Of a stretch of 20,484 bases of DNA, positions 1,306 to 18,736 are shown piece by piece (position 1 is the first letter of the stretch; each line of letters starts with the position of its first letter). Source of the stretch: an uncultured Deinococcales bacterium (GTDB taxonomy: Bacteria; Deinococcota; Deinococci; Deinococcales; JAAFIG01). Where the stretch lies: assembly GCA_964244895.1 (NCBI GenBank), contig CAXTKV010000084.1, forward strand, positions 1 to 20,484, given 5' to 3'. The notes beneath the pieces were generated by a model. The model was not told the DNA's origin and made no database searches. It was given only the letters and a program-made list of their open reading frames with translations. The position numbers and the translations under genes are program-made.

Positions 1306-1357
1306 GAGAACACCGTCCAGCACACGAATAAGGAACATTGTTTCAGACGGTGTTCTC
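1306..1357. repeat. Palindromic intergenic repeat, 52-bp form (copy A)
   Basis: gagaacaccgtc-cagcacacgaataaggaacattgtttca-gacggtgttctc; perfect 12-bp terminal inverted arms; 11 nt after the ABC stop codon. Confidence 0.95.
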
Positions 1358-1501
1358 GTGCGGGAGTCAGCGTCTGAACCGTCCGGCTCGAGCGACGGCG
1401 TTCCTATGCGCGCACCCGCCGCAGCTCGAGCCGACGCTCCCGCACGAGGGCGAACGGCAGGATGCGCTTCGCGCGCCAACGCTTGAGGAATCGCGCGATG
1501 A

Positions 1502-2407
1502 ATGGTCTACTCAGGCGTGTTCAACGCGCTCCTGGAAGTCGTGCTGCCCGTGATCGTCGTGACGCTGGCGGGCGTTCTTTTGGGGCGGTACATCAGGCCG
1601 GATCAGGCGGGCATCTCGAAAATCACGCTGTTCGCGCTCTCCCCCGCCCTGGCATTGGACAACCTGGCGCACTCCGAAGTCCGGTTCGGGACGGCATTCT
1701 TGATCATCTTTTGCTACGCCCTCTTCGAGGCGATCATGGGTGCAATCACCTGGTTCTCGAGCCGGGACGTGCCCGAAAAAACCCGGCGCGGCATGGTAGC
1801 GGGCGTGATCACCGGCAACAACGGGAATTTTGGCCTGCCGATCAGCCTGTTCGCCTTTGGACAGGCGGGCTTCGAGCTTTCATTGATTGTGTTCACCATT
1901 AGCGTCTTTTTCACCTTCGTGGTCACGGCAGCCGTGCTTTCCGGCGCAACCGACTGGCGCTTGAGTTTGCGGGCGGTTTTTCGGTTGCCGCTGGTCTGGG
2001 CGGCGCTCTTGGGGATCGCCCTGAACGCGCTGCACGCGACCTTCCCGACCGGAATTGACCGTGGCATTCACCTGCTGGCGCAAGCGGCCATCCCGATGCT
2101 GCTGATTTCGCTGGGCTTGCAGATCGGCGCGAGCGGATTGCCCGCGCTGTCCGGCCCGGTGCTGCGCGCGAGCGGATTGCGGTTGTTCCTGGGGCCGTTG
2201 GTGGCCTTCGCGGTCGGGACGCTGTTCGGCTTGCGCGGCCTCGAGCGCGGCGTGCTGGTGCTCTCAAGCGCCATGCCGACGGCGATCAACGCGTTCTTGC
2301 TGGCCGGGGAACTCGGTGCGGACGCGAAGACGGTCGCAGGCACGGTCGTGCTCACGACCTTCGGTTCGATTGCGACGATTGCGCTGGTCGTGTCGCTCTT
2401 GCGTTAA
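1502..2407 (+). CDS. AEC (auxin efflux carrier) family membrane transporter
   Basis: About 10 hydrophobic segments, GNNGNFGLP and SSAMPTA motifs. An alternative in-frame GTG start exists at 1517. Confidence 0.9.
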   Translation: MVYSGVFNALLEVVLPVIVVTLAGVLLGRYIRPDQAGISKITLFALSPALALDNLAHSEVRFGTAFLIIFCYALFEAIMGAITWFSSRDVPEKTRRGMVAGVITGNNGNFGLPISLFAFGQAGFELSLIVFTISVFFTFVVTAAVLSGATDWRLSLRAVFRLPLVWAALLGIALNALHATFPTGIDRGIHLLAQAAIPMLLISLGLQIGASGLPALSGPVLRASGLRLFLGPLVAFAVGTLFGLRGLERGVLVLSSAMPTAINAFLLAGELGADAKTVAGTVVLTTFGSIATIALVVSLLR

Positions 2408-2455
2408 ACACCGTCCAGGACGTGAATCTCGAGACGCGTCACGGACGGTGCTCCT
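2404..2455. repeat. Palindromic intergenic repeat, 52-bp form (copy B, degenerate ends)
   Basis: ttaaacaccgtc-caggacgtgaatctcgagacgcgtcacg-gacggtgctcct; overlaps the TAA stop (2405-2407) of the AEC gene. Confidence 0.88.
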
Positions 2456-2492
2456 GTGATCTACGCCCCGTATACCGGGCGCAACCCTTTGC

Positions 2493-2533
2493 TAGACTGG
2501 GTTCAAACAAATCGCCCTCGAGCCGCAAGGAGG
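2493..2533 (+). promoter_or_regulatory. Putative -10 box (TAGACT 2493-2498) and RBS (AAGGAGG 2527-2533) of the acyl-CoA dehydrogenase gene
   Basis: Motifs seen directly upstream of ATG 2538. TAGACT recurs upstream of several genes in the window. Confidence 0.6.
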
Positions 2534-2537
2534 CCGT

Positions 2538-3683
2538 ATGCCCCTCGATTTCAGGTTGACCGAAGAACAACTTCAGCTTCAGGCGCTGGCTCGAGAGTTC
2601 GCGCAGCGCGAGATCATCCCGGTGGCCGCCGAGTACGACCGCAGCGAAACCTACCCGGAGAGCGTGATCGCCAAAGCCGCCGAGGTCGGGCTTTTGAACT
2701 CCATTGTGCCCGCGCACGCGGGCGGCTTGGGGCTCGGGATGCTCGAGGAGAGCATTCTGGGCGAGGAGATCGGCTACGGCTGCATGGGCATCTACAGCAT
2801 CATGATGGCCTCGGAACTGGGCATCACGCCGATCAACGTGGGCGGCACCGAGGAACAGCAAAAACGCTTCCTGACGCCGTTGACGGACGGGCCGCGCCTC
2901 GCCTCGTTCGCACTCTCCGAACCGAACAACGGTTCAGACGCCGCCGCGATGCGAACCAAAGCCGTGCAGGACGGTGACGATTGGGTCATCAACGGAACCA
3001 AAATGTGGATCACCAACGGTGGCATCGCGGAATTCGCGGTCGTGTTCGCCACGGTGGACGCGAGCCTGCGGACGAAAGGTTCCGTCGCCATCGTCGTGCC
3101 GCGCGGAACGCCAGGATTCGCGTTCAACAAAATTCACCACAAGATGGGCCAGCGCGCCGCGCACACCGCCGAACTCGTGTTCGAGGACGTGCGCGTGCCC
3201 AGGGAAAACATGCTGGGCGGCGTCGGAGACGGATTCAAGATCGCCATGAAGACCCTCGACAAGACGCGCGTGCCCGTCGCGGCGGGCAGCGTCGGCATCA
3301 TCCGGCGCGCGCTCGAGGAATCGGTCAAATACGCCAAATCCCGCGAAGCCTTCGGCAAACCGATCTCCGAATTTCAGGCCATCCAGATCAAGCTCGCGGA
3401 GATGTACATGAGCCTCGAGAACGCGCGGTTGGCGACGTACCGGGCGGCCTGGCTGGTGGACAACGGGATGCCGCACGCGATGGAGGCCGCCGCCGCGAAA
3501 GCCTACGCATCTGAGGCCGCCTTCAACGCTGCGAACGAAGCCATTCAGGTTCACGGCGGGTACGGTTACGTCGGCGAGTACCCCGTCGAGAAGCTGCTGC
3601 GCGACGCGAAATTAAACATGATCTACGAGGGCACGAGTGAGATTCAACGCGTCGTGATGGCGAGAGGGTTGTTGAAGGATTGA
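2538..3683 (+). CDS. Acyl-CoA dehydrogenase (short/medium-chain type)
   Basis: FALSEPNNGSDA, INGTKMWITNG, REAFGKPI, QVHGGYGY, IYEGTSEIQ; strong RBS. Confidence 0.96.
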   Translation: MPLDFRLTEEQLQLQALAREFAQREIIPVAAEYDRSETYPESVIAKAAEVGLLNSIVPAHAGGLGLGMLEESILGEEIGYGCMGIYSIMMASELGITPINVGGTEEQQKRFLTPLTDGPRLASFALSEPNNGSDAAAMRTKAVQDGDDWVINGTKMWITNGGIAEFAVVFATVDASLRTKGSVAIVVPRGTPGFAFNKIHHKMGQRAAHTAELVFEDVRVPRENMLGGVGDGFKIAMKTLDKTRVPVAAGSVGIIRRALEESVKYAKSREAFGKPISEFQAIQIKLAEMYMSLENARLATYRAAWLVDNGMPHAMEAAAAKAYASEAAFNAANEAIQVHGGYGYVGEYPVEKLLRDAKLNMIYEGTSEIQRVVMARGLLKD

Positions 3684-3734
3684 AGAACACCGTTCCACAC
3701 GCGAATCTTAAAATGCGTGCTGGACGGTGTTCTC
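3683..3734. repeat. Palindromic intergenic repeat, 52-bp form (copy C)
   Basis: aagaacaccgtt-ccacacgcgaatcttaaaatgcgtgctg-gacggtgttctc; begins in the TGA stop of the acyl-CoA dehydrogenase gene. Confidence 0.93.
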
Positions 3735-3768
3735 GCAACGCGTGAACGCAAAAGGATAAACTGACTGC

Positions 3769-4014
3769 ATGGAAACAATCGGGAAAGGTCACATCAGCGC
3801 AAGGATTCGAGTCGAGCTTTTCGACTTTCTCGAGGACTACCAGAGACGCCACGACCACTCGAGCCGAACGGCAGCGCTCGAGGAAGCGATTCGTGCCCTA
3901 CGAGCACGCGAATATGAGCGGGAATTGCGCGATGCCTACCGAGCTGCGAACAAACAATGGGACTCGAGCGAAGATGCGAAGTTGTGGGATCGAACCGTTG
4001 GGGACGGATTGTAA
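3769..4014 (+). CDS. Ribbon-helix-helix antitoxin, MazE-like (resembles mycobacterial MazE9 type); no cognate toxin adjacent
   Basis: N-terminal RHH pattern (HISARI...FLEDY...SSRTAALEEAIRAL) and C-terminal L..AY...W......WDRTVGDGL tail typical of this antitoxin group. TAAACT at 3757-3762 lies 6 nt before the ATG (leaderless arrangement). Confidence 0.8.
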   Translation: METIGKGHISARIRVELFDFLEDYQRRHDHSSRTAALEEAIRALRAREYERELRDAYRAANKQWDSSEDAKLWDRTVGDGL

Positions 4015-4028
4015 ATGCCGATCTAAGA

Positions 4029-4080
4029 TAGAACACCGTCCTACACACGAATTACAGAATGCGTTCCAGACAATATTCTC
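4029..4080. repeat. Palindromic intergenic repeat, 52-bp form (copy D, right arm decayed)
   Basis: tagaacaccgtc-ctacacacgaattacagaatgcgttcca-gacaatattctc; right arm has three G>A changes relative to gacggtgttctc but the length is unchanged. Confidence 0.85.
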
Positions 4081-4116
4081 GAAACTGAATCACATTGAAA
4101 GGCGGAATTCATAATC

Positions 4117-4788
4117 ATGAGTATTGACAGCAAAAACGTAACGAAAATCAAAGCAGAAACTTTAGCCTACTGGTACTTAAGGTTAAACGGTTTCCTCACT
4201 ATTACAAATTTTATTGTTCATCCCAACTCTGGCTACGATCAACGAACTGATGTAGATGTTATCGGAATTCGATTTCCATATCGCGAAGAGTTATTATACA
4301 ATCCGATGCAAGATGACACTATATTCAAAGCAAACTCTGAAAAGCCTTTGTTAGTATTTACAGAAGTTAAATCAAGTATATGTGATTTAAACGGCCCTTG
4401 GACAAAACCTCAAAAAGAAAATATGCAACAGGTACTTCGAGCTATTGGTACATTTAAGACAGCTGAAATCGATACAGTTTCCAAATCACTTTATAAAGAC
4501 GGAAATTACGAAGGAGATCAAATTATTGTCAAGTTATTGTGTGTAGGGGGAACTATAAATCCGAAACTCCAAAGGAAATATAAAGGTGTCCCGCAGATAA
4601 TCTTTGATGATATTTTATCTTTTATTTATAATAGATTTACAAGTTATTATCAACAGAAGGCCAGTCACAATCAGTGGGATAAAGATATCAAAGCCTTGTG
4701 GAATCTTGCAATAAAGTGCTCAGGAGCGGCAAAAAGCTCACAAGACGGATGTACAGCATTTATTTCTGATATCAAGGTGAACCCATGA
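4117..4788 (+). CDS. AT-rich hypothetical protein, putative PD-(D/E)XK (restriction-endonuclease-like) fold
   Basis: 223-aa ORF. Two sampled 60-nt lines are 30-35% GC, versus about 70% in a sampled etfA line. Motif order: E14 in helix ([14 protein letters not shown]), D47 (TDVDVIG), E83-x-K85 (FTEVKS). The stop overlaps the etfB ATG (ATGA). Confidence 0.7.
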
Positions 4789-6496: not shown

Positions 6497-6517
6497 ATTC
6501 TCGGGTGTGAACCTCAC

Positions 6518-6579
6518 GAGAACACCGTCCTGGACGGTGTTCTTTCGCTCCGAAGAATGGCGTGCTGGACGGTGTTCCG
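6518..6579. repeat. Palindromic intergenic repeat, 62-bp composite form (copy E)
   Basis: 27-bp palindrome gagaacaccgtcc-t-ggacggtgttctt (6518-6544), a spacer, then a second right arm gcgtgctggacggtgttccg ending at 6579. Confidence 0.93.
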
Positions 6580-6699
6580 TAGGGGCGAACTCCATGCTCG
6601 CCCTGCCCCGAACCCATGTCGAAGCGCTCGTCCAGGAGCGCTTTTCCCGAGTTCTGCGCGAGCATTGCGAGCGCACCTCCAAGCCCTCAGTTGCTCAGC

Positions 6700-6726
6700 C
6701 GGAACGCCGTCTGGTACGGTGTTCTC
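6700..6726. repeat. Palindromic intergenic repeat, 27-bp short form (degenerate)
   Basis: cggaacgccgtct-g-gtacggtgttctc; ends 10 nt before the probable beta-glucosidase start. Confidence 0.75.
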
Positions 6727-6736
6727 AGGTGCGATC

Positions 6737-8158
6737 ATGATTGACCCAGAGCGGCGCTCGAGCCAACCAGACCCGGCGGACTTCCCCAGGAATTTCAAGT
6801 GGGGTGTGGCCAGCAGCGCCTACCAGATCGAGGGCGCGGCTTCCGAAGATGGGAAAGGCGCGAGCATCTGGGATGCGTTCTCGAGGTTGCCGGGAACCAT
6901 CGCGGGCGGCGCGACGGGCGACGTGGCCTGCGATCACTACCACCGGCTGGAATCGGATCTCGATTTGATCGCGGCGTTGGGCGTGAACGCGTACCGGTTC
7001 TCGGTGTCGTGGCCGCGCGTCATTCCGGATGGACGCGGTCAGATCAACCCGATGGGCTTGGATTTCTATCAGCGCCTGGTGGACGGTCTGCTGGAGCGCG
7101 GCATTGAACCGTGGGTCACGCTCTACCACTGGGATTTACCGCTCGCGCTCGAAGAAAAAGGGGGCTGGCCCGTCCGGAACACGGCGTATGCCTTCGCGGA
7201 ATACGCGGAAGTCGTGGCGCGCGCGCTGGGTGATCGCGTGGCGGGTTGGATGACCATCAACGAGCCGTTCAACGCGGCGGCGCTCGGGTACGGGTCGGGC
7301 ATGCACGCGCCGGGCCGAAGGGAGCCCAGCGCAGTGCTGGCGGCGGCGCACCACTTGCTGTTGGCGCACGGTCTGGGCGTGTCCGCACTGCGCGCGAATT
7401 CTCGAGGGCAGGCGGCCAGCAACGTCGGGATCGCGCTGTCCCTCAACCGGGTCGAGGCGGCCAGCGGCAGCGCGGGCGATCAACTCGCGGGGCGCGTGCT
7501 GGAAGGCTTTTTGAACCGCTGGTTCCTCGATCCGATCTTCAAGCGCGCTTACCCGAGCGATCTGGCCATGTTCGTGCAGCAGTTGATGCCGGACTTCCCG
7601 TCCAAGGATCTGGATGATATCGGCGCGGGGATCGATTTCCTGGGCGTGAACTACTACACGCGCGAGCTGGTGCGCGCGCCCAGGCCGGGAACCCCGCGCG
7701 AGGGCATGAACGCGATTTTGAAGCAGCTCGGCTTGCCCCTGGAGGTCGTGCCGGAAGCCGAACGCGGCCATCCGGTCACGGCGATGGGCTGGGAAGTCTA
7801 CCCGGACGGGTTGCTCGAGTTGCTGATGGCACTCCAGCGCAATTACGCCCCGAAATCCATCGTCATCACGGAAAACGGTTCGGCCTTCCCGGACGCGCCG
7901 GATGTGGATGGCATCGTGCAGGACGAAGCGCGCCTGGCGTACCTGAAAGCGCACCTCGAGCGCGCCTCGCGCGCGATGGCGGCGGGCGTGCCGCTCGAAG
8001 GGTACTTCGCGTGGTCGCTGATGGACAACCTGGAATGGGCGGAGGGGTTTGAAAAACGTTTCGGGTTGTACCGCACGGATTTCACGACCCAGAAGAGGCA
8101 TTTGAAGGCGTCCGGGGCGTGGTATCGGGATTTCGTGCGCCAGTTCAGGCTTCGATAA
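6737..8158 (+). CDS. Beta-glucosidase, glycoside hydrolase family 1
   Basis: FPRNFKWGVASSAYQIEG, YRFSVSWPR, TLYHWDLP, TINEP (acid/base), ITENG (nucleophile), WSLMDNLEW. Start moved to ATG 6737 because the ORF-track extension runs through repeats. Confidence 0.95.
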   Translation: MIDPERRSSQPDPADFPRNFKWGVASSAYQIEGAASEDGKGASIWDAFSRLPGTIAGGATGDVACDHYHRLESDLDLIAALGVNAYRFSVSWPRVIPDGRGQINPMGLDFYQRLVDGLLERGIEPWVTLYHWDLPLALEEKGGWPVRNTAYAFAEYAEVVARALGDRVAGWMTINEPFNAAALGYGSGMHAPGRREPSAVLAAAHHLLLAHGLGVSALRANSRGQAASNVGIALSLNRVEAASGSAGDQLAGRVLEGFLNRWFLDPIFKRAYPSDLAMFVQQLMPDFPSKDLDDIGAGIDFLGVNYYTRELVRAPRPGTPREGMNAILKQLGLPLEVVPEAERGHPVTAMGWEVYPDGLLELLMALQRNYAPKSIVITENGSAFPDAPDVDGIVQDEARLAYLKAHLERASRAMAAGVPLEGYFAWSLMDNLEWAEGFEKRFGLYRTDFTTQKRHLKASGAWYRDFVRQFRLR

Positions 8159-8171
8159 ATCGGCGTCTCTA

Positions 8172-8223
8172 GAGCGCACCATCTGGCGCGCGAACCTTAA
8201 AATACGCGCTGGACGGTCTTTTG
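8172..8223. repeat. Palindromic intergenic repeat, 52-bp form (copy F, degenerate)
   Basis: gagcgcaccatc-tggcgcgcgaaccttaaaatacgcgctg-gacggtcttttg; central part closely matches copy C. Confidence 0.8.
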
Positions 8224-8302
8224 GGCGATCGAGGCCGCGATGAGGGTTCTCGCGTCCCGCATTTGGTCGCGCACAGATTGATCGTGTAGACTGACCGGGT
8301 TG

Positions 8303-8391
8303 TTGGGGGAGTAGCCGCCCGAAACGGGAGCGCTCATCGTCAGTACGAAGGCCATCGGTCTTCCGGTGAACGCATCAAAGGCGAGACTCAA
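8303..8391 (+). ncRNA. yybP-ykoY (Mn2+-sensing) riboswitch
   Basis: Hallmark segments GGGGAGTAGC ... CGTCAGTAC ... CCGG ... GGCGAGAC with a closing stem ttggg/ctcaa. It lies directly upstream of a TerC/Alx gene, with TAGACT (-10) at 8287-8292. Confidence 0.9.
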
Positions 8392-8404
8392 ATCGGAGTG
8401 AATC

Positions 8405-9340
8405 GTGGAGATTCCCGTTTGGGTCTGGTTTGCATTCATCGCTGGCGTGCTGGGCGTGTTGGCGCTCGACTTGGGCGTCTTCAACCGAGAGGCGCACGTC
8501 GTGAGCGTCACCGAAGCCGCCCTCTGGACGGGCGTGTGGGTCGCGCTCGGGCTGGGGTTCGCGGGCCTGGTATTCGTCTGGCAGGGTCAGCAAAAAGGCT
8601 TGGAATGGCTGACGGGTTACCTGATCGAGTACTCGCTGGCGGTCGACAACATCTTCGTGTTCGTGCTGGTCTTCGGCGCGTTCGCCGTACCGCCCGAGTA
8701 CCGCCACCGGGTGCTGTTCTGGGGGGTTCTGGGGGCATTGCTCATGCGCGGCGCGATGATCGGCCTGGGGGCGGAACTGATTGAACGGTTCCACTGGATG
8801 CTGTACGTTTTCGGCGGTTTTCTGGTGTTCACGGGATTGCGGATGCTTTTTTCCAGGAAGGATGAACACGCGGATCTCGAGAAGAACCCCGCCGTCAGGC
8901 TGGCGCGGCGATTCTTTCCGATCAGCCGCGACTACGACGGTCAGAAGTTCTTTACCGTGCGGGACGACGTTCGCACGGCGACCCCACTATTCCTGGTGCT
9001 GGTCTTGATCGAGTTCACCGACCTGGTGTTCGCGGTGGACAGCATCCCGGCGATTTTTGCGGTCACCACCGATCCCTTTATCGTCTTCACCTCGAACGTC
9101 ATGGCGATATTGGGTTTGCGCAGCCTGTACTTCCTGCTGGCGGACGTGGTGGAGCGTTTCGTGTACCTCAAGACGGGCCTGGCCGTGATCTTGTCGTTCA
9201 TCGGCGCGAAGCTGTTGCTGATCGATAGCGTCAAGATTCCGACGGCGTACTCGTTGGGCGTGATCATCGGTGTGCTGACGATCAGCGTGATCGCATCGTT
9301 GTTCAAGACCGCCCGACAAAAACCGTTCAAGGCTGGCTGA
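8405..9340 (+). CDS. TerC/Alx family metal-homeostasis membrane protein
   Basis: EYSLAVDNIFVF, HRVLFWGVLGALLMR, IEFTDLVFAVDSIPAIFAVT, SNVMAILGLRSLYF; GTG start with GGAG RBS. Confidence 0.95.
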   Translation: MEIPVWVWFAFIAGVLGVLALDLGVFNREAHVVSVTEAALWTGVWVALGLGFAGLVFVWQGQQKGLEWLTGYLIEYSLAVDNIFVFVLVFGAFAVPPEYRHRVLFWGVLGALLMRGAMIGLGAELIERFHWMLYVFGGFLVFTGLRMLFSRKDEHADLEKNPAVRLARRFFPISRDYDGQKFFTVRDDVRTATPLFLVLVLIEFTDLVFAVDSIPAIFAVTTDPFIVFTSNVMAILGLRSLYFLLADVVERFVYLKTGLAVILSFIGAKLLLIDSVKIPTAYSLGVIIGVLTISVIASLFKTARQKPFKAG

Positions 9341-9554
9341 GCGACCCGAAGCACCGGCGTCTCAACGGTCGGCATCCCCCAAACGCCGACCGTCACGACT
9401 CGAGCCTCTGGCGCGACCGAAACGCACCGAGCTTGGCGGCGCGTGAAAACACGACCTGAGGCGAAAAAGGCGGTCAGGTTTGGAGGCTCGTTGGCGGTTC
9501 TCGATTCATTTCTCGCGTCAGCCGCGAACCGCGCCGGAGCAGCGCGCGGCTCGA

Positions 9555-9573
9555 GCAAATGAATTTCATTTGC
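9555..9573. promoter_or_regulatory. Perfect 9-1-9 AT-rich palindrome, candidate operator
   Basis: gcaaatgaa-t-ttcatttgc, about 40 nt upstream of a TAGACT at 9614. Confidence 0.55.
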
Positions 9574-9754
9574 CAGTGTGAGGACTTCCGCAGACATCCG
9601 AAGAAACGATGACTAGACTGGAATCAATCCAGAGACGATCTTTCGCCTTGGCATTCGTTCCGGTCATTCCCGGAGCGGGTCAATGGACTACTCGTATTTA
9701 CGCGCGTCGGCAGCCCGTTCGCAGGCCATCGCTCAGCTCAACCCGGAGGTTCAC

Positions 9755-10036
9755 ATGGACCGTTCGACCGTGATCCCGCCCGCCCCATCCACCACCGAAT
9801 CTTTCACCACCAAAAAATCCGCCCGCCAGGTGCGGGGACGCTGGGTTCCCGGCACGAGCGATCAGCTCGAATTGCGCCTGATTGAGACGGACGAGTGCGC
9901 TCAGGTTAGCGTGCGCTGGTTCCTGAGCCATTTCGGTCGCGCCGCGATGGATTCGTTGTACTTGCGCGGCAAGTACGAGTTCGAGTGCGACGATGGCACC
10001 TGGAAGGGCGTCAAGAACGCCCGCGAACACGCCTGA
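9755..10036 (+). CDS. Small hypothetical protein (93 aa; longer start at 9683 possible)
   Basis: GGAGG RBS just before ATG 9755; host-like codon usage; followed by a repeat like other real genes here. Confidence 0.7.
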   Translation: MDRSTVIPPAPSTTESFTTKKSARQVRGRWVPGTSDQLELRLIETDECAQVSVRWFLSHFGRAAMDSLYLRGKYEFECDDGTWKGVKNAREHA

Positions 10037-10054
10037 AGGGTTTCGATCTCGGAC

Positions 10055-10116
10055 CAGAAGACCGTCCAGCACGCGTTTTTGGCGCCCTCGAGAACACCGT
10101 CCCAGACGGTGTTCTT
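10055..10116. repeat. Palindromic intergenic repeat, 62-bp composite form (copy G, reverse orientation)
   Basis: Extra arm cagaagaccgtccagcacgc, a spacer, then the 27-bp unit gagaacaccgtcc-c-agacggtgttctt (10090-10116). Confidence 0.92.
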
Positions 10117-10183
10117 TTGATACCGCCTCGAGCAACCTCGAGACGCCGCGATCGTGGGTTCGAGGTTGCGTCTCGAGCGATCG

Positions 10184-11773
10184 TCAGCCGAGCAGGGCGG
10201 ATAGATCCAGCTTGGTCTGGGTGCGCAAATCCACCGTGTCCATCTGCGCGAGTTGCAAGGCGCCCGCGTGATCGTCGTTGACGGCCTGCCAGCGCGTGTA
10301 GGATTCCAGCACCCAGATGCCGGATTCCCTGGAGGTGTTGCCGGAAGCTTTCGTGCCGCCGAACGGCAGGTGCGCTTCCGCGCCGGTGGTCGAGTTGTTG
10401 ATGCTGGTCATGCCCGCCTCGATGCGCTCCTTGAAGCGGAAGGCCCAACCGTGGTTGTTGGTGTAAATCGCGCTGGACAGGCCGTACGGCGCGGCGTTGG
10501 CGGCGGTGATGGCCTCGTCCAGGCCGTCCACCGCGACCAGGTTGATGGTCGGGCCAAAGATTTCCGTCTGGAAGAGTTTCATGCCCACCGTCACGCCCGC
10601 CCAGACGGTCGGCCAGCCGAACATGCCGGTGGCGGGGTCGCCCTTGAAGCCGGATGGTCTGGAATCCGGCGCGATGCGCCCCTCGCCGTAGAGTTTCTTC
10701 GCGCCCTCCGCGCCGCCCCAATCCAGGTGCTCGAGCCACGTGTTCATGAACCGCTCCGACATGAACGGCCCGTACGTCACGCCCGGATGCGCCAACGGAT
10801 CGCCGATCTCGAGGGCGCGCACGCGATCCATGAACATCGCCGTGAAGGCGTCCGCGATGGGCGCGTCCAGGATGATGTTCCCAGCGCTGGTGCAGCGTTG
10901 ACCGCCCGTACCGAAGGCCGCCCAGACCGCACCGGAGACGGCGTTTTCCAGGTCCGCGTCGCGCATCACGACCAGCGGGTTCTTGCCGCCCAGTTCCAAT
11001 GACGGGCTGACCAGGTTGCGACCCGCGACCGCGCCGATCTCGCGCCCGACAGCGCTCGAACCGGTGAAGGCGAACTTCTGCACGCGCCCTTCGTCCATCA
11101 TGCCGACCAGCGCCTTGCCCGCCTCGCGACCGCCGTAGACGACGTTCAGCACGCCGTCCGGCAGGCCCGCCGCCAGGAAGACCTCGAGCATCGCGGCGGC
11201 GCAAGCGGGCGCGTCCTCGGACGGTTTCCAGACGACCGTGTTGCCCGACAGGAGCGCCGGGACGAGCTTCCAACTGGGGACGGCCATCGGGAAGTTGCCC
11301 GCCGTGATCATGCCGACCACACCCAGAGGTCGGCGGTAGGTCATGAGTTCCTTGTCGGGCATCTCGGACGGAACCGTCTGACCGTACAAGCGGCGGCCTT
11401 CGGACTGGAAGAAGCGGCAGGTATCGATGACTTCTTGCACCTCGCCGAAGGCTTCCTTGGCGGTCTTGCCGATCTCTCGGGTGACGAGTTTTTCCAAGGC
11501 CGCACGGTGCGTCTCGATCAGATCACCGATCTTACCGATCAGCGCCCCGCGCACCGGGGCGGGCACGCGCCGCCAGGCGGTATAGGCCGTTCCAGCCGCG
11601 ATGCAGGCTGCACGCACGTCGTCGATGCTCGAATCCGGGAAGGTTCCGACCAGATCGTCCAGCCGCGCCGGATTGCGGGACTCGAAGCTGTTGAGTGCGC
11701 TTTCCCACGCGCCACCGATGCGGTTCTTGCCTTGAATGCTGGGACCGTAAACGCTTTTTGCGCTGTATTCCAT
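10184..11773 (-). CDS. NAD(P)-dependent aldehyde dehydrogenase family protein
   Basis: ITAGNFP, WKPSE, FTGSSAVG, LELGGKNP, GQRCTS (catalytic Cys), EIFGP, LPFGG. TAGACT lies 6 nt before the ATG on the minus strand (11780-11785). Substrate not assignable. Confidence 0.95.
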   Translation of the reverse strand: MEYSAKSVYGPSIQGKNRIGGAWESALNSFESRNPARLDDLVGTFPDSSIDDVRAACIAAGTAYTAWRRVPAPVRGALIGKIGDLIETHRAALEKLVTREIGKTAKEAFGEVQEVIDTCRFFQSEGRRLYGQTVPSEMPDKELMTYRRPLGVVGMITAGNFPMAVPSWKLVPALLSGNTVVWKPSEDAPACAAAMLEVFLAAGLPDGVLNVVYGGREAGKALVGMMDEGRVQKFAFTGSSAVGREIGAVAGRNLVSPSLELGGKNPLVVMRDADLENAVSGAVWAAFGTGGQRCTSAGNIILDAPIADAFTAMFMDRVRALEIGDPLAHPGVTYGPFMSERFMNTWLEHLDWGGAEGAKKLYGEGRIAPDSRPSGFKGDPATGMFGWPTVWAGVTVGMKLFQTEIFGPTINLVAVDGLDEAITAANAAPYGLSSAIYTNNHGWAFRFKERIEAGMTSINNSTTGAEAHLPFGGTKASGNTSRESGIWVLESYTRWQAVNDDHAGALQLAQMDTVDLRTQTKLDLSALLG

Positions 11774-11811
11774 ATCCTCAGTCTACCGCGCGAGCTCGAG
11801 ACTGGTTCGCA

Positions 11812-11863
11812 AGGAACACCGTCCAGCACGCGAACTCGAGAATGTGTCTGGGACGGTGTTCTC
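11812..11863. repeat. Palindromic intergenic repeat, 52-bp form (copy H)
   Basis: aggaacaccgtc-cagcacgcgaactcgagaatgtgtctgg-gacggtgttctc. Confidence 0.94.
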
Positions 11864-11936
11864 GGGATCAGGCTTGAACGTTGTTCCCGGCTCGAAATGG
11901 CGAGGGCGTGATCTTTGTCAGTACAAATCTCTAGAC

Positions 11937-11975
11937 AAAAAAACACGACGAGAGCCAAGGGCTTTCGTGGTGTTT
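11937..11975 (-). terminator. Putative intrinsic terminator of the small minus-strand ORF
   Basis: Minus strand reads aaacaccacgaaagcc-ctt-ggctctcgtcgtgttt running into a 7-T tract; 36 nt after the stop at 12012. Confidence 0.6.
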
Positions 11976-12011
11976 CAGGTTGAATCCAGAAAGCAAAGCG
12001 ACATGGATTCT

Positions 12012-12215
12012 TTAATCGTTCCCGATGTTGAGGGTAGAGCCAGCGCCCACACCCGCGACGAAGGAACCTAACACGAGGACAATGGCTGCCAACGTGTCTT
12101 TTTCCGTCTGCGTCGTCGCATCGATGCGAGGAGCAGCGTGGAAAATAAATGCACTGAACACACTTACAGTCAGGGCAATGCCTGAAAGTATCAAGCGTTT
12201 TTGTACGAAAGTCAT
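12012..12215 (-). CDS. Small hypothetical membrane protein (67 aa, two hydrophobic segments)
   Basis: GGAG 8 nt before the ATG, a downstream terminator-like hairpin, two TM-like stretches; sits in a lower-GC patch. Confidence 0.6.
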   Translation of the reverse strand: MTFVQKRLILSGIALTVSVFSAFIFHAAPRIDATTQTEKDTLAAIVLVLGSFVAGVGAGSTLNIGND

Positions 12216-12301
12216 AAGGATTGCTCCATAAAAATAGTGATCTCATTGTGGACGATCACATCTCGTCTGAGGGAGTCAATCGCACACTCAAAAGTTCCCG
12301 C

Positions 12302-12338
12302 GAAGTCCTCGAGCCGAGCGTCAGAAGTCCTCGAGCCG
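12302..12338. repeat. 15-bp direct repeat (gaagtcctcgagccg x2, 22-bp period)
   Basis: Exact copies at 12302-12316 and 12324-12338. Confidence 0.85.
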
Positions 12339-12359
12339 CCGCGCTCGTTACAATCATTC

Positions 12360-14801
12360 ATGACCGAATCCTTTCCAACTCAGGCGCGCGCCGTGATCGT
12401 CGGCGGCGGCATCGTCGGCTCGAGCGTGGCGTATCACCTGACCAAATTGGGCTGGAAGGACGTGGTGCTGCTCGAGCAGAACGCGCTGGGCGGCGGCACG
12501 ACCTGGCACGCGGCGGGACTGGTCGGGCAGTTGAGAACCAGCAACAGCATGACGAAGATCAACAAGTACAGCGTGGAACTCTACCCAACCCTCGAGGCGG
12601 AGACGGGCGTGTCCGTGGGCTGGAAGACCACGGGCAGCCTGATCGTGGCGACCAGCCAGGACCGCATGGTTCAGTTGCGGCGCACGATGGCGATGGCGGA
12701 ACTGTTCGGCGTCAGCGCCGAGATGATCACGGCCAGTGAAGCCCAGGAAAAATGGCCGTTGATGCGCGTGGATGACGTGCTGGGCGCGGCCTGGTTGCCG
12801 GACGACGGCAAGTGCGTGCCCAGGGACACGGCGCTGGCGCTCTCAAAAGGGGCACAGATGCGCGGTGCGCGAGTTCTCGAGGGCGTGCGCGTGATGGACG
12901 TATTGCGAGAGAACGGTCGGGCGACAGGCGTGCGCACGAACCAGGGCGAGATCAGCGCCGAGGTCGTGGTGCTGTGCGGCGGCATGTGGACGCGAGAACT
13001 GGGCCTGAAGATCGGCGTCAACATCCCGCTGTTTCCGGTCGAGCACCATTACGTCGTGTCCGAACCGATTCCGGGCGCATTCGATGAACTGCCGGTCGGG
13101 CGCGATCCGAACCGCTGCATTTACTACCGTGGCGAGGGCAACCGGATCGTGCTGGGCGCGTTCCAGGCGTACACCAAACCGTGGGATGCCGACCCGATCC
13201 CGGCAGATTTCAGCGACGCGCTGCTCGAGCCGGACTGGGAGAAGTACGCCGATCCGTTGGCGGCGGGTCAGTGGCGCATTCCGGCCTTGCGGGGCGCGAA
13301 GTTCGAGAAGTTCATCAACGGCCCGGAGAGCTTCACGCCGGACAACAACTTCTTGATGGGTGAAACGCCGGAGTTGCGCGGTCTGTTCGTGATGGCGGGT
13401 TTCAACTCGGTCGGCATCGCCAGCGCGGGAGGGGCGGGCAAGTACCTGGCGGAGTGGATTGCGGAGGGCGAACCGACGCTCGATCTGTGGTCGGTGGACA
13501 TCCGACGTTTCGGGAGCGTTGTGAACAACCGCGCGTTCCTGCGCGAGCGCGTGACCGAGGTGCTGGGATTGCACTACCAGATGGCCTGGCCGAACCGCGA
13601 ACCCGCGACCGGGCGCGATCTGCGCGTCTCTGCGTTGCACGCGCAACTGGTGCGAGCGGGCGCGAGCTTCGGGCAGAAGGCGGGGCTCGAGCGACCGAAC
13701 TGGTTCGCCGTGGACGGCGCGAAACTGGAGGTCGAGTACGGCTGGGGCCGGCAGAACTGGTTCGAGGCGCACGCGCGCGAGCACCGCGCGGCGCGCGAAA
13801 CGGTCGCAGTCTTCGATCAGTCCGGCTTCGCCAAGCTTGAAGTGGCGGGGCGAGACGCGCTCGGGTTGCTTCAACACCTGTGCGCCAACGACGTGGACGT
13901 GCCCGTGGGTCGCGCGGTCTACACGGCCATGCTGAACGCGCGCGGCGGCTTCGAGAGCGACCTGACGGTGTTGCGCCTCGGGGAAAACCAGTTCAGGATC
14001 ATCACGGGGTCATCTCAGGCGGTTCACGACGCGGACTGGATTCGCCGTCACGTCGGCGCGATGAACGTCACCGTCACCGACGTGAGCGAAAGTCACGCCG
14101 TGATCGGCGCGATGGGGCCGAACGCGAGGGCTTTGCTCCGGCGACTCACGGACGCGGACATCTCGCACGAGGGGTTCCCGTTTTCTACGGCGCGAACCAT
14201 CGAACTGGGCTCGGTGACGGCGCTGGCGGTGCGCATCACCTACGTCGGCGAGCAGGGCTGGGAGTTGCACGTTCCGACCAGTCAGGCCGCCGGTCTGTAC
14301 GACGCCCTGATGCGCGAGGGCTCGAGCCTGGGCGTCAGGAACGCTGGGCATTACGCGATCAATTCCCTGCGACTCGAGAAAGCGTACCGGGCGTGGGGCG
14401 CGGACATCTCGCCGGAAGACACGGCGCTGGAAGCCGGGTTGGGCTTCGCGGTGGCGTGGGACAAACCGGAGTTCATCGGTAAAGAAGCGCTGCTCGAGCA
14501 GAAACGAATCGGCCTGAGGCGGATGCTCGTCAGCTTTCGGCTCGAGAACCCCGAGCCCGTGCTGTGGGGTTCCGAACCGATCCTGCGGGGCGGCGTGCCC
14601 GTCGGGTACACGACTTCCGGCAGTTACGGGCACACCCTGGGCGCGGCCATCGGCATGGGTTACGTCAAGAACGCGGGCGGTGTGGACGCAGATTGGATTC
14701 GCGCCGGACGTTACGAGATCGTCGTGAACGGCCAGCCTTTCGCGGCCAGACCGCACCTGCGCGCGCCGTATGACCCGGAGCGCAAACGCATCTTGATCTG
14801 A
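12360..14801 (+). CDS. GcvT-family FAD-dependent oxidoreductase (sarcosine/dimethylglycine dehydrogenase-like)
   Basis: VIVGGGIVG Rossmann motif, GTTWHAAG (covalent-FAD His motif), NGPESFTPD, C-terminal aminomethyltransferase domain (RITYVGEQGWE, SLRLEKAYRAWG). Start set at ATG 12360, with TACAAT 5 nt upstream. Confidence 0.93.
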   Translation: MTESFPTQARAVIVGGGIVGSSVAYHLTKLGWKDVVLLEQNALGGGTTWHAAGLVGQLRTSNSMTKINKYSVELYPTLEAETGVSVGWKTTGSLIVATSQDRMVQLRRTMAMAELFGVSAEMITASEAQEKWPLMRVDDVLGAAWLPDDGKCVPRDTALALSKGAQMRGARVLEGVRVMDVLRENGRATGVRTNQGEISAEVVVLCGGMWTRELGLKIGVNIPLFPVEHHYVVSEPIPGAFDELPVGRDPNRCIYYRGEGNRIVLGAFQAYTKPWDADPIPADFSDALLEPDWEKYADPLAAGQWRIPALRGAKFEKFINGPESFTPDNNFLMGETPELRGLFVMAGFNSVGIASAGGAGKYLAEWIAEGEPTLDLWSVDIRRFGSVVNNRAFLRERVTEVLGLHYQMAWPNREPATGRDLRVSALHAQLVRAGASFGQKAGLERPNWFAVDGAKLEVEYGWGRQNWFEAHAREHRAARETVAVFDQSGFAKLEVAGRDALGLLQHLCANDVDVPVGRAVYTAMLNARGGFESDLTVLRLGENQFRIITGSSQAVHDADWIRRHVGAMNVTVTDVSESHAVIGAMGPNARALLRRLTDADISHEGFPFSTARTIELGSVTALAVRITYVGEQGWELHVPTSQAAGLYDALMREGSSLGVRNAGHYAINSLRLEKAYRAWGADISPEDTALEAGLGFAVAWDKPEFIGKEALLEQKRIGLRRMLVSFRLENPEPVLWGSEPILRGGVPVGYTTSGSYGHTLGAAIGMGYVKNAGGVDADWIRAGRYEIVVNGQPFAARPHLRAPYDPERKRILI

Positions 14802-14867
14802 ACGAAACGTGCGTTCGGCTCCTCGAGTACGCGACGTTCGATACGCGCGCTCGAGCGCTCCAGTCAA

Positions 14868-14919
14868 AAGAACACCGCCCTGCGCGCATTCCAATATTCG
14901 CGTGCCAGACGGTGTTCTC
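14868..14919. repeat. Palindromic intergenic repeat, 52-bp form (copy I, reverse orientation)
   Basis: Reverse complement: gagaacaccgtc-tggcacgcgaatattggaatgcgcgcag-ggcggtgttctt. Confidence 0.93.
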
Positions 14920-14969
14920 GAGCGCGAGCGAACCTGAAATGAGAGGCCCGCACGGTGCTCGAGGTCGCG

Positions 14970-15878: not shown

Positions 15879-16055
15879 GGTTCGGCTCGAGGCTCATCGT
15901 AACGCCCGAGTTACGACCGACCTCACGCGGTGCTCGTGCCTCACCAGATTCGACATCCCGAAGGCGCGCGCCGAAGGATCTTTTGGCCGTCGTGCAGCCG
16001 CCAGTTCCACCGTCTTCGACCATTCGTTCTGCGCGCCAACGCGAGCGTACCGATC

Positions 16056-16107
16056 GAGAACACCGTCCTGGACGCATGCTCGAGTTCGCGTGCCAGACGG
16101 TGTTCTC
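16056..16107. repeat. Palindromic intergenic repeat, 52-bp form (copy J, reverse orientation)
   Basis: Reverse complement: gagaacaccgtc-tggcacgcgaactcgagcatgcgtccag-gacggtgttctc; perfect 12-bp arms. Confidence 0.95.
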
Positions 16108-16148
16108 GTGCGGTTTCAAGAATGGCACATCGACGTAGACTCGAGCCA

Positions 16149-16943: not shown

Positions 16944-16946
16944 ACC

Positions 16947-17717: not shown

Positions 17718-17799
17718 AACTACATGGTACAAGACGAAAATAAAACTGCAGTAAAGAATACCAACTTGAGTCCAAATTGGATTTTCGTCAGGCGAACAC

Positions 17800-18402
17800 C
17801 TACGGTATGACCGGATCGAGCGAACTCGGGCCACCGTAGGTCGTTCTGATGATGCTCGGCTTGCCTTTTCCCTGCTCTGGTACGACAAAAATCGTCATGT
17901 CCTGATAGCGGTTCGGCGGGTCGCCGACGCCGCCCAGCAGGCGGTAAATGTCTTCCAGGGTGCCGTTCGTGCCCAGGTTCGGCGCGCCCTGATTGCCGAC
18001 CCACAAGACCACACCGCCCGCGTGTTTGCTCAACCACTCCTTGACCAGCGCGTTGGCCAGGTTCTTCGTGTCCACCAGTTGCGTCAAGTCCACGATGGCG
18101 GGTGCCAAACCCAGTTTGTTCGCCAACGGCTGCACCGTCTGGCGGTTCCGGATGTAGTCGACGGTGTAGATCGCGGTCACGCCGTTCTGCCCCAGGACGT
18201 TGGCGAGCACCTGCGCCCGCGCCTGCCCTTCGGCGTTTAACGGCGGGTCACTTCCCGGATCGCGTTCAGCGTGTCGCACCATGATGATCGTGGTCGTCGT
18301 GCCCGGCTGCGAGATGATCGGCGGCGTGGGGACGTTGCAGGCGACCATCGAGCAGGCCAGAAAAAACGCGAGGAACGCTCGAGAAGCACGACTTGAGAGC
18401 AT
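17800..18402 (-). CDS. Histidine phosphatase (SixA/phosphoglycerate mutase-like) family lipoprotein
   Basis: Signal peptide with lipobox-like MVAC, IIMVRHAE, PPLNAEGQARA, RNRQT; TACAGT 5 nt before the ATG. Confidence 0.85.
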   Translation of the reverse strand: MLSSRASRAFLAFFLACSMVACNVPTPPIISQPGTTTTIIMVRHAERDPGSDPPLNAEGQARAQVLANVLGQNGVTAIYTVDYIRNRQTVQPLANKLGLAPAIVDLTQLVDTKNLANALVKEWLSKHAGGVVLWVGNQGAPNLGTNGTLEDIYRLLGGVGDPPNRYQDMTIFVVPEQGKGKPSIIRTTYGGPSSLDPVIP

Positions 18403-18446
18403 GGCTGACTGTACAACCCAGACGGGAACTCTGCGGTTTAGTCCCG

Positions 18447-18508
18447 AGGAACACCGTCCTGGACGGTGTTCTCTGAATTATAGAAAGATCGTGCTGGACG
18501 GTGTAGTC
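18447..18508. repeat. Palindromic intergenic repeat, 62-bp composite form (copy K)
   Basis: aggaacaccgtcc-t-ggacggtgttctc (18447-18473), a spacer, then tcgtgctggacggtgtagtc. Confidence 0.92.
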
Positions 18509-18532
18509 CATAGCCGCCATTCGCACGACTAG

Positions 18533-18560
18533 GGCTCGAGCGTACCGGTACGCTCGAGCC
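18533..18560. repeat. Perfect 28-bp palindrome with no spacer
   Basis: ggctcgagcgtacc|ggtacgctcgagcc equals its own reverse complement. Confidence 0.95.
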
Positions 18561-18678
18561 ACGCGGAAATCTGGGGCGGGACTGGCACCGATTGCGTTTC
18601 GGGATTCGGCGAATTCGAGTTCTCCCCTGCCCGATCCCTGTCGTTGGTTCTCGAGGGCAACTGAACCGTTGTCCTCGA

Positions 18679-18729
18679 GAAAACACCGTTCTGAACGGTT
18701 TACCTGAGAAAAACGCCGTCCTATACGCA
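18679..18729. repeat. Degenerate 27-bp short form of the repeat plus a lone left arm
   Basis: gaaaacaccgttc-t-gaacggtttacct (18679-18705), followed by aaaaacgccgtcctatacgca from 18709. Confidence 0.65.
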
Positions 18730-18736
18730 GCAAATG

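What the first reader, a model, noticed from the sequence alone, without database searches (positions are those of the whole stretch)
1306..18729. Dense intergenic palindromic repeat family (GAGAACACCGTC...GACGGTGTTCTC) with invariant 52-bp length
Seen: eight copies (1306, 2404, 3683, 4029, 8172, 11812, 14868, 16056) align without gaps at exactly 52 bp, despite heavy substitution in some. The approximate consensus is GAGAACACCGTC-YRGCACGC-GAAYnnnRRAAT-GCGTGCWG-GACGGTGTTCTC, a stem of up to 20 bp with a 12-nt asymmetric loop that gives orientation (six forward, two reverse). With the shorter and composite forms there are 13 loci in 20.5 kb, none internal to a CDS (two overlap a stop codon). Established: REP/REPIN elements spread by HUH (RAYT) transposases usually carry a terminal GT(A/G)G or CGTC tag, and D. 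radiodurans has SRE/SNR repeats. I see no such terminal tag and no consistent target-site duplication here, and I do not recognise this sequence. Inference: an undescribed REP/MITE-like family or chromosome-wide protein-binding element, possibly with many hundreds of copies genome-wide, whose mobiliser is encoded elsewhere.
Basis: partly seen in the sequence, partly recalled or inferred. Interest (0 to 1): 0.85.

Follow-up and report, generated by a model that had tools for sequence, protein, structure and literature searches.

The report
Replication-origin bending site amplified genome-wide
An uncultured relative of Deinococcus carries about 1,800 evenly phased pairs of a short mirror-symmetric DNA word between its genes; a looser form of the word sits at one fixed spot in the predicted replication origins of many relatives, so it is likely the docking site of a DNA-bending protein (possibly HU) that has multiplied across this genome.

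Summary
The repeat is real: 13 loci in the window and 2,861 genome-wide (5,523 arms vs 27 control). The unit is not a fixed 52-mer but a dyad box, (GAACAC)CGT-S-YNR-S-ACG, alone or paired at 25/26 or 35/36 bp, one helical turn apart. No target duplication, master copy, RAYT, empty site or RNA-pairing signal was found. Inner bases are constrained, the flanks carry a phased 11-bp A/T pattern, and single boxes are 2-6-fold enriched inside genes. New here: across Deinococcota a looser box lies where IHF or HU acts in E. coli. It centres a 34-35-bp gap between DnaA boxes of the predicted oriC (same register in 16 of 21 genomes). It sits between the inverted iterons of primase elements, and upstream of gyrB and HU genes. 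One Meiothermus-type genome holds a separate ~100-copy expansion. Best reading: the docking site of the phylum's IHF equivalent, probably an HU-family protein, amplified into paired chromosome-wide sites. Binding, the protein and the means of spread are untested.

The parts
1306..1357 (.). paired boxes, centres 1319/1344 (25 bp), 11 nt after ABC ATPase stop
2404..2455 (.). paired boxes 2417/2442 (25 bp), overlaps TAA of membrane transporter gene
3683..3734 (.). paired boxes 3696/3721 (25 bp), touches TGA of acyl-CoA dehydrogenase gene
4029..4080 (.). decayed pair 4042/4067 (25 bp) after orphan MazE-like ORF; does not fold as a hairpin
6518..6579 (.). paired boxes 6531/6566 (35 bp); left box is a perfect palindrome
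6700..6726 (.). single palindromic box, centre 6713, upstream of beta-glucosidase-like gene
8172..8223 (.). decayed pair 8185/8210 (25 bp); left box scores only 2.4
10055..10116 (.). paired boxes 10068/10103 (35 bp) between convergent genes; bridged without a large gap by the X1 relative
11812..11863 (.). paired boxes 11825/11850 (25 bp) with central CTCGAG, between divergent genes
14868..14919 (.). paired boxes 14881/14906 (25 bp) between convergent genes; bridged by the X1 relative
16056..16107 (.). paired boxes 16069/16094 (25 bp) with central CTCGAG, between divergent genes
18447..18508 (.). paired boxes 18460/18495 (35 bp); left box is a perfect palindrome
18679..18735 (.). degenerate pair 18692/18722 (30 bp, minor class) upstream of ilvD-like gene
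61..83 (.). candidate single box inside the ABC ATPase gene (score 15.2); cannot be told from chance on its own
   Evidence: genome-wide excess
2957..2979 (.). candidate single box inside the acyl-CoA dehydrogenase gene (score 15.9); cannot be told from chance on its own
   Evidence: genome-wide excess

Best explanation
The repeat is a pair of 23-bp dyad boxes (core CGT-S-YNR-S-ACG with A/T-rich edges) that likely serve as docking sites for a host DNA-bending protein filling the role of IHF in Deinococcota, possibly the phylum's HU. Shown: box anatomy, spacings of 25/26 and 35/36 bp, about one element per intergenic gap, phased flanks, and a looser box in relatives at a fixed register in the predicted oriC, between iterons of primase elements, and upstream of gyrB and HU genes. 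Inferred: one homodimer covers about 35 bp per box and kinks the DNA at the two CpG steps 9 bp apart. Two dimers would sit on one phase, abutting at 35/36 bp or overlapping by a turn at 25/26 bp. The pairs would bend or wrap DNA at gene boundaries, as IHF-bearing BIME-1 elements are thought to. Inferred and weakest: a two-box unit was first spread by an old copy-and-paste process whose enzyme is not identified, and is now held by selection on the DNA site.
For: Site-like constraint: inner A, C, G of the box, not used to pick copies, are 93, 97 and 87% conserved vs 38-61% in the linker (770 copies); spacings differ by one turn and distances of 50, 51 and 60-62 bp are absent. Flanking AA/TT/AT period 11-11.5 bp is phased to the box (0.567 vs jittered 0.049 +/- 0.018), also in coding flanks (0.33 vs 0.069). 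Single boxes inside 2,885 genes: 486/153/60 at three cut-offs vs 197-243/37-52/6-11 in synonymous shuffles. oriC: 21 of 29 relatives have a 43-44-bp DnaA-box gap; best box position is offset 24 in 16 of 21 and 23-25 in 20; permuted matrices reach that count 1 of 1000 times; this genome has a box of score 15.9 in that gap. IHF binds 30-35 bp between R1 and R5M, and HU binds the same interspace (PMC10325909, passages). Primase elements: 7 of 14 motif-blind iteron clusters hold a box, 0 the control; 12 boxes in 4,952 bp vs 8 in 78,858 bp outside; 30 strong boxes in 247 kb vs permuted mean 4.9, 0 of 200 as high; iterons differ between elements while the box stays; homologous proteobacterial iteron clusters lack it (best score 1.8). 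gyrB upstream 11 vs 1 control in 29 genomes. Thermus-type HU upstream regions 7 of 15 in this family vs 2 of 83 background regions. G202 has one HU-family gene and 107 boxes vs 3 control.
Against: No binding was measured. D. radiodurans HU is reported as structure-specific and otherwise non-specific (10.64898/2026.08.18.745388, passages), and T. maritima HU needs DnaA to find its origin site (PMC10325909). Many oriC scores are low (-5.8 to 17.5), two genomes of genus g13 score -14 and -15, and 8 of 29 origins lacked the gap by my rule. Kin are not independent (7 of 21 are genus g5). HU-promoter enrichment is weak outside this family (5 of 33; 39 of 500 permutations as high) and absent in genus g9; second-type HU 3 of 12. 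Type I-E CRISPR leaders showed no box at a fixed site. Proteobacterial iteron clusters had only one-mismatch IHF-like words, none exact. Arms of the 25-bp class co-vary somewhat (0.55 vs 0.40 and 0.58 vs 0.44 paired), which points to hairpin-templated copying. This genome's three HU genes are not unusual (1-3 in the family), so nothing found explains why it alone amplified the site.
Confidence: 0.62

Rival explanations
1. The pairs are REPIN- or MITE-like non-autonomous mobile DNA, kept by a transposase that is missing from the assembly; the resemblance to origin sites is a carried host-factor site or chance.
For: Inverted doublets with fixed spacing, variable spacer and extragenic position fit the REPIN definition (PMC3116915, passages). 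Restricted to one genus among 364 genomes (2,771 vs at most 55). Some arm covariation. G202 shows a more uniform family with a conserved linker inside heptamer arms. The assembly is 91% complete and holds no multicopy IS, so a transposase could be unassembled.
Against: No Y1_Tnp in G000 or in 99%-complete G202. No terminal GTAG/CGTC tag. No target duplication at 11 boundaries x 7 lengths. No master sequence. Not random in extragenic space: 1,996 gaps with one copy and 186 with more, vs 830 and 537 expected. Six window sites are covered by the X1 relative without a 52-bp gap. Single boxes are enriched inside genes.
Confidence: 0.14
2. The box is bound by a protein other than HU, such as gyrase or an unrecognised nucleoid protein, that wraps DNA at gene ends.
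For: The ~11-bp A/T phasing runs about 90 bp outward, as expected of a wrap; the box lies upstream of gyrB; each of 41 genomes has one gyrB-family gene; DrHU is reported without sequence preference.
Against: The slots between DnaA boxes (34-35 bp) and between iterons (36-38 bp in L220, L224, L226) fit an IHF/HU-sized footprint and seem too tight for a long gyrase wrap (gyrase wrap length recalled). No candidate protein was found.
Confidence: 0.14
3. The pairs act as RNA hairpins (terminators or mRNA stabilisers) at gene ends.
For: Eight of ten window copies fold with z of -3.6 or lower; median distance from a stop codon is 17 nt and convergent gaps are most often filled (483 of 591). Box-centred hairpins after tRNA genes in L501 and L503 look like terminators.
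Against: G-U is not favoured over A-C on the transcribed strand (476 vs 526, 318 vs 400, 106 vs 110); a T-tract follows only 24 of 485 copies, mirror control 21; no strand bias; 344 of 637 divergent gaps are filled; helical quantisation is not needed for RNA. A side role in transcripts is not excluded.
Confidence: 0.06
4. The box is a DNA uptake sequence, like Neisseria DUS, driven into the genome by biased transformation.
For: Density of about one arm per 0.9 kb, inverted pairs after genes and an excess inside genes; the comparison with DUS/USS is recalled and was raised in e1-9942882.
Against: Only 46 of 1,973 complete elements of the five main classes are intragenic; the box is a dyad with quantised pairing; it does not explain the oriC and iteron positions in relatives with few copies.
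Confidence: 0.04

Closest known systems
IHF-binding region of E. coli oriC and HU-bound DnaA-box interspace of T. maritima oriC (PMC10325909, passages read)
   Same: A 34-35-bp interspace between DnaA boxes near one end of the box array, matching the 30-35-bp IHF footprint; the paper lists T. thermophilus oriC among origins reviewed for HU-interactive regions.
   Different: The word is a GC-rich dyad, not WATCAAnnnnTTA; the host's HU-family genes score below IHF cut-offs; here the site is a genome-wide repeat; the passages read name no sequence for the Thermus interspace.
IHF sites in iteron plasmid origins pSC101, R6K, P1 (PMC4980987, passages read)
   Same: A host architectural site embedded in a replicon origin with element-specific iterons.
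   Different: Here it is centred between inverted iterons at the 3' end of DUF927/DUF3987 primase genes, often twice, 144 bp apart; origin function is predicted, not shown.
E. coli BIME-1 (PMC3333891, passages read)
   Same: Single-copy-per-locus extragenic palindromic repeats bearing a site for a DNA-bending protein; the G202 family (long inverted arms around a conserved two-box core) is closest.
   Different: In BIME-1 the repeats are GTAG-tagged REPs and the IHF site is in the linker; here the putative bending site is itself the repeat, paired in helical phase, with no TnpA-REP.
REPINs of Pseudomonas fluorescens with RAYT (PMC3116915, passages read)
   Same: Inverted doublets, characteristic spacing, variable spacer, hairpin potential.
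   Different: No RAYT, no random spread over extragenic space, no excision evidence, spacings one turn apart.
CGTC-tagged REPs (PMC3733652, passages read)
   Same: Contains CGTC, dimeric, no dedicated transposase.
   Different: CGTC is internal and paired, not an unpaired end tag; no 8-9-bp stem with 4-5-nt loop and CCA tail; Deinococcus and Thermus are not mentioned in that paper's main text.
Borrelia Hbb, a sequence-specific homodimeric HU/IHF protein (recalled; PDB 2NP2 listed)
   Same: Precedent for a homodimer of this family with a symmetric site.
   Different: Hbb's site is AT-rich (recalled); no test links Deinococcota HU to the box.

Membership tests
REP/REPIN-RAYT | terminal unpaired GTAG-type tetranucleotide | tested here: not met
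   class consensus starts GAGAACAC or AAGAACAC
REP/REPIN-RAYT | inverted doublets at characteristic spacing with variable spacer | tested here: met
   25/26 and 35/36 bp classes
REP/REPIN-RAYT | Y1 transposase flanked by the repeat | tested here: not met
   0 PF01797 matches in G000 (91% complete) and G202 (99%)
REP/REPIN-RAYT | doublets randomly spread over extragenic space | tested here: not met
   1,996 single and 186 multiple vs 830 and 537 expected among 3,228 gaps
REP/REPIN-RAYT | excision or presence/absence polymorphism | tested here: inconclusive
   one relative, contigs only: six sites covered without a 52-bp gap, two in unaligned gaps of 106 vs 93 and 175 vs 197 nt
CGTC REPs | unpaired terminal CGTC, 8-9-bp stem, 4-5-nt loop, CCA tail | tested here: not met
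   consensus vs definition
MITE of a DDE insertion sequence | target-site duplication | tested here: not met
   no excess at any boundary or length; CTCGAG on both sides 8 vs 18.7 expected
MITE of a DDE insertion sequence | terminal repeats shared with a resident IS | tested here: inconclusive
   five PF01609 loci in G000: three have no box, none shows an inverted pair enclosing the transposase; only PF01609, PF01548 and PF01797 were searched; ISfinder not available
Intrinsic terminator | hairpin followed by a U-tract, strand-biased, G-U tolerated | tested here: not met
IHF-type architectural site | matches WATCAAnnnnTTA | tested here: not met
   no exact match in 11 Deinococcota loci with iteron clusters; box consensus differs
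IHF-type architectural site | occupies the ~35-bp DnaA-box interspace of oriC | tested here: met
   fixed register in 16 of 21 gaps; permutation 1 of 1000; scores often low
IHF-type architectural site | present in iteron replicon origins | tested here: met
IHF-type architectural site | present next to integrase att sites | tested here: inconclusive
   box 15-20 nt from tRNA 3' ends beside integrases in L223, L225, L501; L219/L223/L225 are kin and L501 is also a terminator-like hairpin
IHF-type architectural site | present at a fixed place in type I-E CRISPR leaders | tested here: not met
   30 loci, about half with a readable leader; no score of 7 or more at a shared position; box-like words by eye at -9 in L250 and L269
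IHF-type architectural site | host encodes IHF alpha and beta | tested here: not met
   three HU-family genes, all below NCBIfam IHF cut-offs; best PDB match 5EKA, an HU
IHF-type architectural site | sequence-specific binding and sharp bending | not testable with these tools
   needs EMSA, footprint and bending assays
D. radiodurans SRE/SNR repeats | sequence identity to those repeats | not tested
   sequences not fetched; indirectly, none of 111 genus-g7 genomes exceeds 46 box matches and none of 11 has the pair

The most novel reading that the evidence does not exclude
Deinococcota HU, with its distinctive RTGV(K/R)PGT arm, is a sequence-specific IHF equivalent that reads CGT-N5-ACG at oriC, replicon origins and its own and the gyrase promoter; one lineage has turned that site into about 1,800 helically phased double-dimer platforms, one per gene boundary, giving a bacterium a sequence-programmed, roughly 2-kb chromatin lattice.
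Probability: 0.3. Interest if true: 0.9.

Novelty: new variant of a known kind. Interest (0 to 1): 0.72.

Why it matters
Thermus and Deinococcus are model organisms with HU and no canonical IHF, and how they bend DNA at origins and recombination sites is open. The amplified repeat supplies thousands of examples of a motif too faint to see in other genomes, and that matrix points to one position in oriC and in replicon origins that can be mutated and footprinted in cultured strains. If right, it gives the phylum's architectural binding code, helps define minimal origins for thermophile vectors, and shows a route by which a host protein site becomes a REP-like family without a RAYT.

Tried and rejected
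Rfam: no hit at gathering score in the window; none on the repeat at E up to 1 in 8100-12400. Mobiliser searches in G000: PF01797 0, PF01548 0, PF01609 5 loci not enclosed by boxes, no multicopy IS by self-BLAST, 17 gene-enclosing unpaired arms not followed up; 11 PF00589 matches listed but not examined. Insertion into CTCGAG with a TCGA duplication: rejected, both-side occurrence below expectation; CTCGAG is common across the family anyway. Genome-collection scan covered 25 of 64 parts and showed 8 stretches: one true pair (the G005 copy) and seven unrelated hairpins. Metagenome scan 0. Viral scan 12 single matches, none among iterons, taken as chance. Plasmid BLAST of one copy: one chance hit. 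The G005 copy's flanks have no long match in G000. G095's repeated boxes lie about 300 bp inside a 24-copy unit, within an open frame, so not terminal repeats; the unit is probably an IS but was not confirmed. G202 inverted copies around a 436-aa gene are not an IS: the gene looks like the tRNA GTPase MnmE by eye. No RNA holder listed. Paper searches found no description of this repeat or of a sequence-specific architectural site in Deinococcota; the Thermus REPSA papers were seen only as a listing, and supplements were not read, including Figure 9B and the supplement of PMC10325909.


Full report
Observation. The eight copies are present at the stated places, align without gaps and span 52 bp. 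With three 62-bp forms, one 27-bp palindrome and one 57-bp form there are 13 loci, none inside a gene, two touching stop codons. The window is contig C84 of G000, a 5.12-Mb, 91%-complete assembly in 328 contigs. Its relatives and gene content place it in Deinococcales; family and genus labels below are the tool's codes, and names such as Meiothermus-type (g13) or Deinococcus-type (g7) are my inference.

Anatomy. A matrix scan finds 5,523 arms vs 27 in the reversed genome, in 2,861 loci covering about 128 kb outside genes. The unit is a dyad box, GAACACCGTC-YNR-SACG, whose perfect form is GAACACCGTC-CWG-GACGGTGTTC. Boxes stand alone (291) or in pairs with strong outer and weak inner halves, centres 25 (832), 26 (143), 35 (515) or 36 (192) bp apart; 769 loci are unpaired halves and 119 fall in minor classes. 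Distances of 50, 51 and 60-62 bp, which triplets would give, are absent. Genes were called with my own dicodon script (4,563 genes), so context counts are approximate. Of 1,973 complete elements in the five main classes 46 are intragenic. They fill 483 of 591 convergent, 1,386 of 2,108 co-directional and 344 of 637 divergent gaps of 50 bp or more, nearly always once: 1,996 single and 186 multiple among 3,228 gaps, vs 830 and 537 under length-weighted random placement. They are sparse on contigs C5 and C130, which hold DDE transposases.

Against an active mobile element. 765 of 766 25-bp-class cores and all 435 35-bp-class cores are distinct, and no target duplication appears at any of 11 boundaries and 7 lengths. 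No Y1 transposase or IS110 was found, and five PF01609 loci are not enclosed by boxes. Run X1 holds a syntenic relative about 90% alike. Its contigs run across 2404, 6700, 10055, 11812 (piece ends at 11864), 14868 and 18447 with too few gap letters to hide a 52-bp deletion; 8172 and 16056 fall in unaligned stretches whose lengths (106 vs 93, 175 vs 197 nt) do not fit clean absence. This is one relative and contigs only. For a copying origin: arms of the 25-bp class co-vary at two variable columns (0.55 vs 0.40 and 0.58 vs 0.44 paired), and the family is confined to this genus among 364 genomes (2,771 matches vs at most 55; one pair in G005).

Against RNA function. Most copies fold well, but G-U is not preferred over A-C on the transcribed strand, T-tracts follow only 24 of 485 copies (mirror control 21), and orientation is 243 vs 242 relative to transcription.

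For a DNA site. The inner A, C and G, not used to select copies, are 93, 97 and 87% conserved while linker positions are 38-61%. AA/TT/AT dinucleotides outside the pairs oscillate with an 11-11.5-bp period in phase with the box (0.567 vs 0.049 +/- 0.018 for jittered anchors), including in coding flanks (0.33 vs 0.069). Single boxes inside genes exceed synonymous shuffles about 2-, 3- and 6-fold at rising cut-offs.

A second expansion. G202 (genus g13) has 107 matches vs 3 control; the other 25 genomes of its genus have 0-17. Most of the 30 copies read are two boxes 36 bp apart with a conserved linker, set inside inverted heptamer arrays; the two read in full lie just after stop codons, and one bare pair lies upstream of a response-regulator gene. 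G202 is 99% complete, has no Y1 transposase and has one HU-family gene.

Where relatives keep the box. In genus g13 several lay among iterons at the ends of primase-like genes of integrase-bearing elements. For a motif-blind test I fetched 40 of the 55 DUF927 places in 363 genomes, leaving out 15 that were low-scoring, on tiny contigs or already seen. Fourteen had an iteron cluster by my rule, three of them spurious by eye (L214, L233, L243); 7 of the 14 held a box and none the control matrix; 12 boxes fell in 4,952 bp vs 8 in 78,858 bp outside. Five origins hold two scoring boxes 144 bp apart, each centred in a gap of about 36-38 bp between inverted iterons that differ from element to element. 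Seven related g7 elements hold one box 145-178 nt before the primase stop, between short inverted repeats. Over all 40 loci there are 30 strong boxes vs a permuted mean of 4.9 (0 of 200 as high), while 200 kb of family background gives 4 vs 5 control. A named 7.4-kb Deinococcus plasmid encodes such a DUF927 protein, so these elements can be replicons. Nine proteobacterial DUF927 loci gave four plausible iteron clusters, none with the box (best 1.8) and each with a one-mismatch IHF-like word but no exact consensus; that half of the comparison is inconclusive.

oriC. Downstream of dnaA, 21 of 29 relatives have a 43-44-bp start-to-start gap between DnaA boxes near the end of the array. The best box position is offset 24 in 16, and 23-25 in 20, of the 21; the control matrix scatters from 11 to 35; permuted matrices reach that count in 1 of 1000 and that mean score in 0 of 1000. 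G000 has a box of score 15.9 in the same gap. Scores are often low, G034 and G030 score -14 and -15, eight origins lacked the gap by my rule, and kin are not independent. In E. coli, IHF binds 30-35 bp between boxes R1 and R5M; HU binds the same interspace with DnaA's help, also in T. maritima, and a sharply bent HU mode takes 34 bp (PMC10325909, passages). IHF sites are needed or helpful in pSC101, R6K and P1 origins (PMC4980987, passages). The D. radiodurans oriC paper does not mention IHF in its main text (PMC7988490, passages).

Promoters and att-like places. The 400 bp upstream of gyrB hold 11 boxes vs 1 control in 29 genomes. Upstream regions of the Thermus-type HU gene hold a box in 7 of 15 genomes of this family vs 2 of 83 background regions; the second HU type gives 3 of 12, other families 5 of 33, genus g9 none. 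Boxes lie 15-20 nt from tRNA 3' ends beside integrases in L223, L225 and L501, but these are kin or double as terminator hairpins. Type I-E CRISPR leaders showed no box at a shared position.

Candidate protein. All 60 genomes sampled have HU-family genes. G000 has three, of two types, sharing the arm RTGV(K/R)PGT, all below IHF cut-offs, with best structural-database match 5EKA. A symmetric site with CpG steps 9 bp apart and A/T-rich edges suits a homodimer of this family (inference; the 9-bp kink spacing is recalled). Against: DrHU is described as loop-specific and otherwise non-specific, though the passages read report no sequence-selection test (10.64898/2026.08.18.745388); two HU/IHF surveys say nothing on Deinococcota specificity in the passages read (PMC5683647; 10.1101/057489); three HU genes are not unusual in the family. 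I put about 0.75 on a host architectural protein and about 0.5 on HU itself.

Comparison and verdict. It works like an IHF site and, as a repeat, like BIME-1 (PMC3333891, passages), but it is not an IHF consensus, a GTAG or CGTC REP (PMC3733652, passages) or a REPIN with RAYT (PMC3116915, passages). Ten paper searches found no description; most subscription papers and all supplements were outside what I saw. The scan has noted the repeat many times on this genome; word searches for the iteron and oriC link returned nothing. Verdict: real, a new variant of a known kind, interest 0.72; binding, protein identity and mode of spread remain untested.

Noticed in passing
window 3769-4014: 81-aa ORF with a weak MazE antitoxin match (NF050104, E 7.5e-5, below cut-off); no toxin gene follows, only a 3-codon frame and repeat copy 4029.
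   Followed up: partly
window 4117-4788: AT-rich 223-aa gene with no Pfam or NCBIfam match, missed by my gene model; likely recently acquired.
   Followed up: partly
window 8306-8440: yybP-ykoY manganese riboswitch candidate upstream of a TerC gene, E 0.0046, below the gathering score.
   Followed up: partly
whole genome and family f1: CTCGAG is the commonest hexamer (21,883 copies) and runs at 2.4-8.3 per kb in all 18 relatives sampled; it often abuts the arms or sits at the centre of the 25-bp class.
   Followed up: partly
G202, loci L067-L096: About 100 composite repeats: two boxes 36 bp apart inside inverted heptamer arrays; a few similar copies in G214 (L360, L363).
   Followed up: partly
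L291 (G034) and L292 (G030), oriC gap: These genus-g13 origins carry a different near-palindrome (CGAT-N4-ATCG-like) in the gap instead of the box.
   Followed up: no
L500 (G024:C4 about 197,880-198,970): Two box pairs, 79 and 89 bp apart, each enclosing the same short repeats and together flanking one gene; looks like recombination sites.
   Followed up: no
L150 (G003): Two near-identical box pairs 40 bp apart, about 900 bp from each other, upstream of a GAPDH gene.
   Followed up: no
L464 (G024:C12): Strong box about 45 bp from a DnaA box, away from dnaA; possible secondary replicon origin.
   Followed up: no
window 9683-10036: 117-aa ORF with no Pfam or NCBIfam match.
   Followed up: partly
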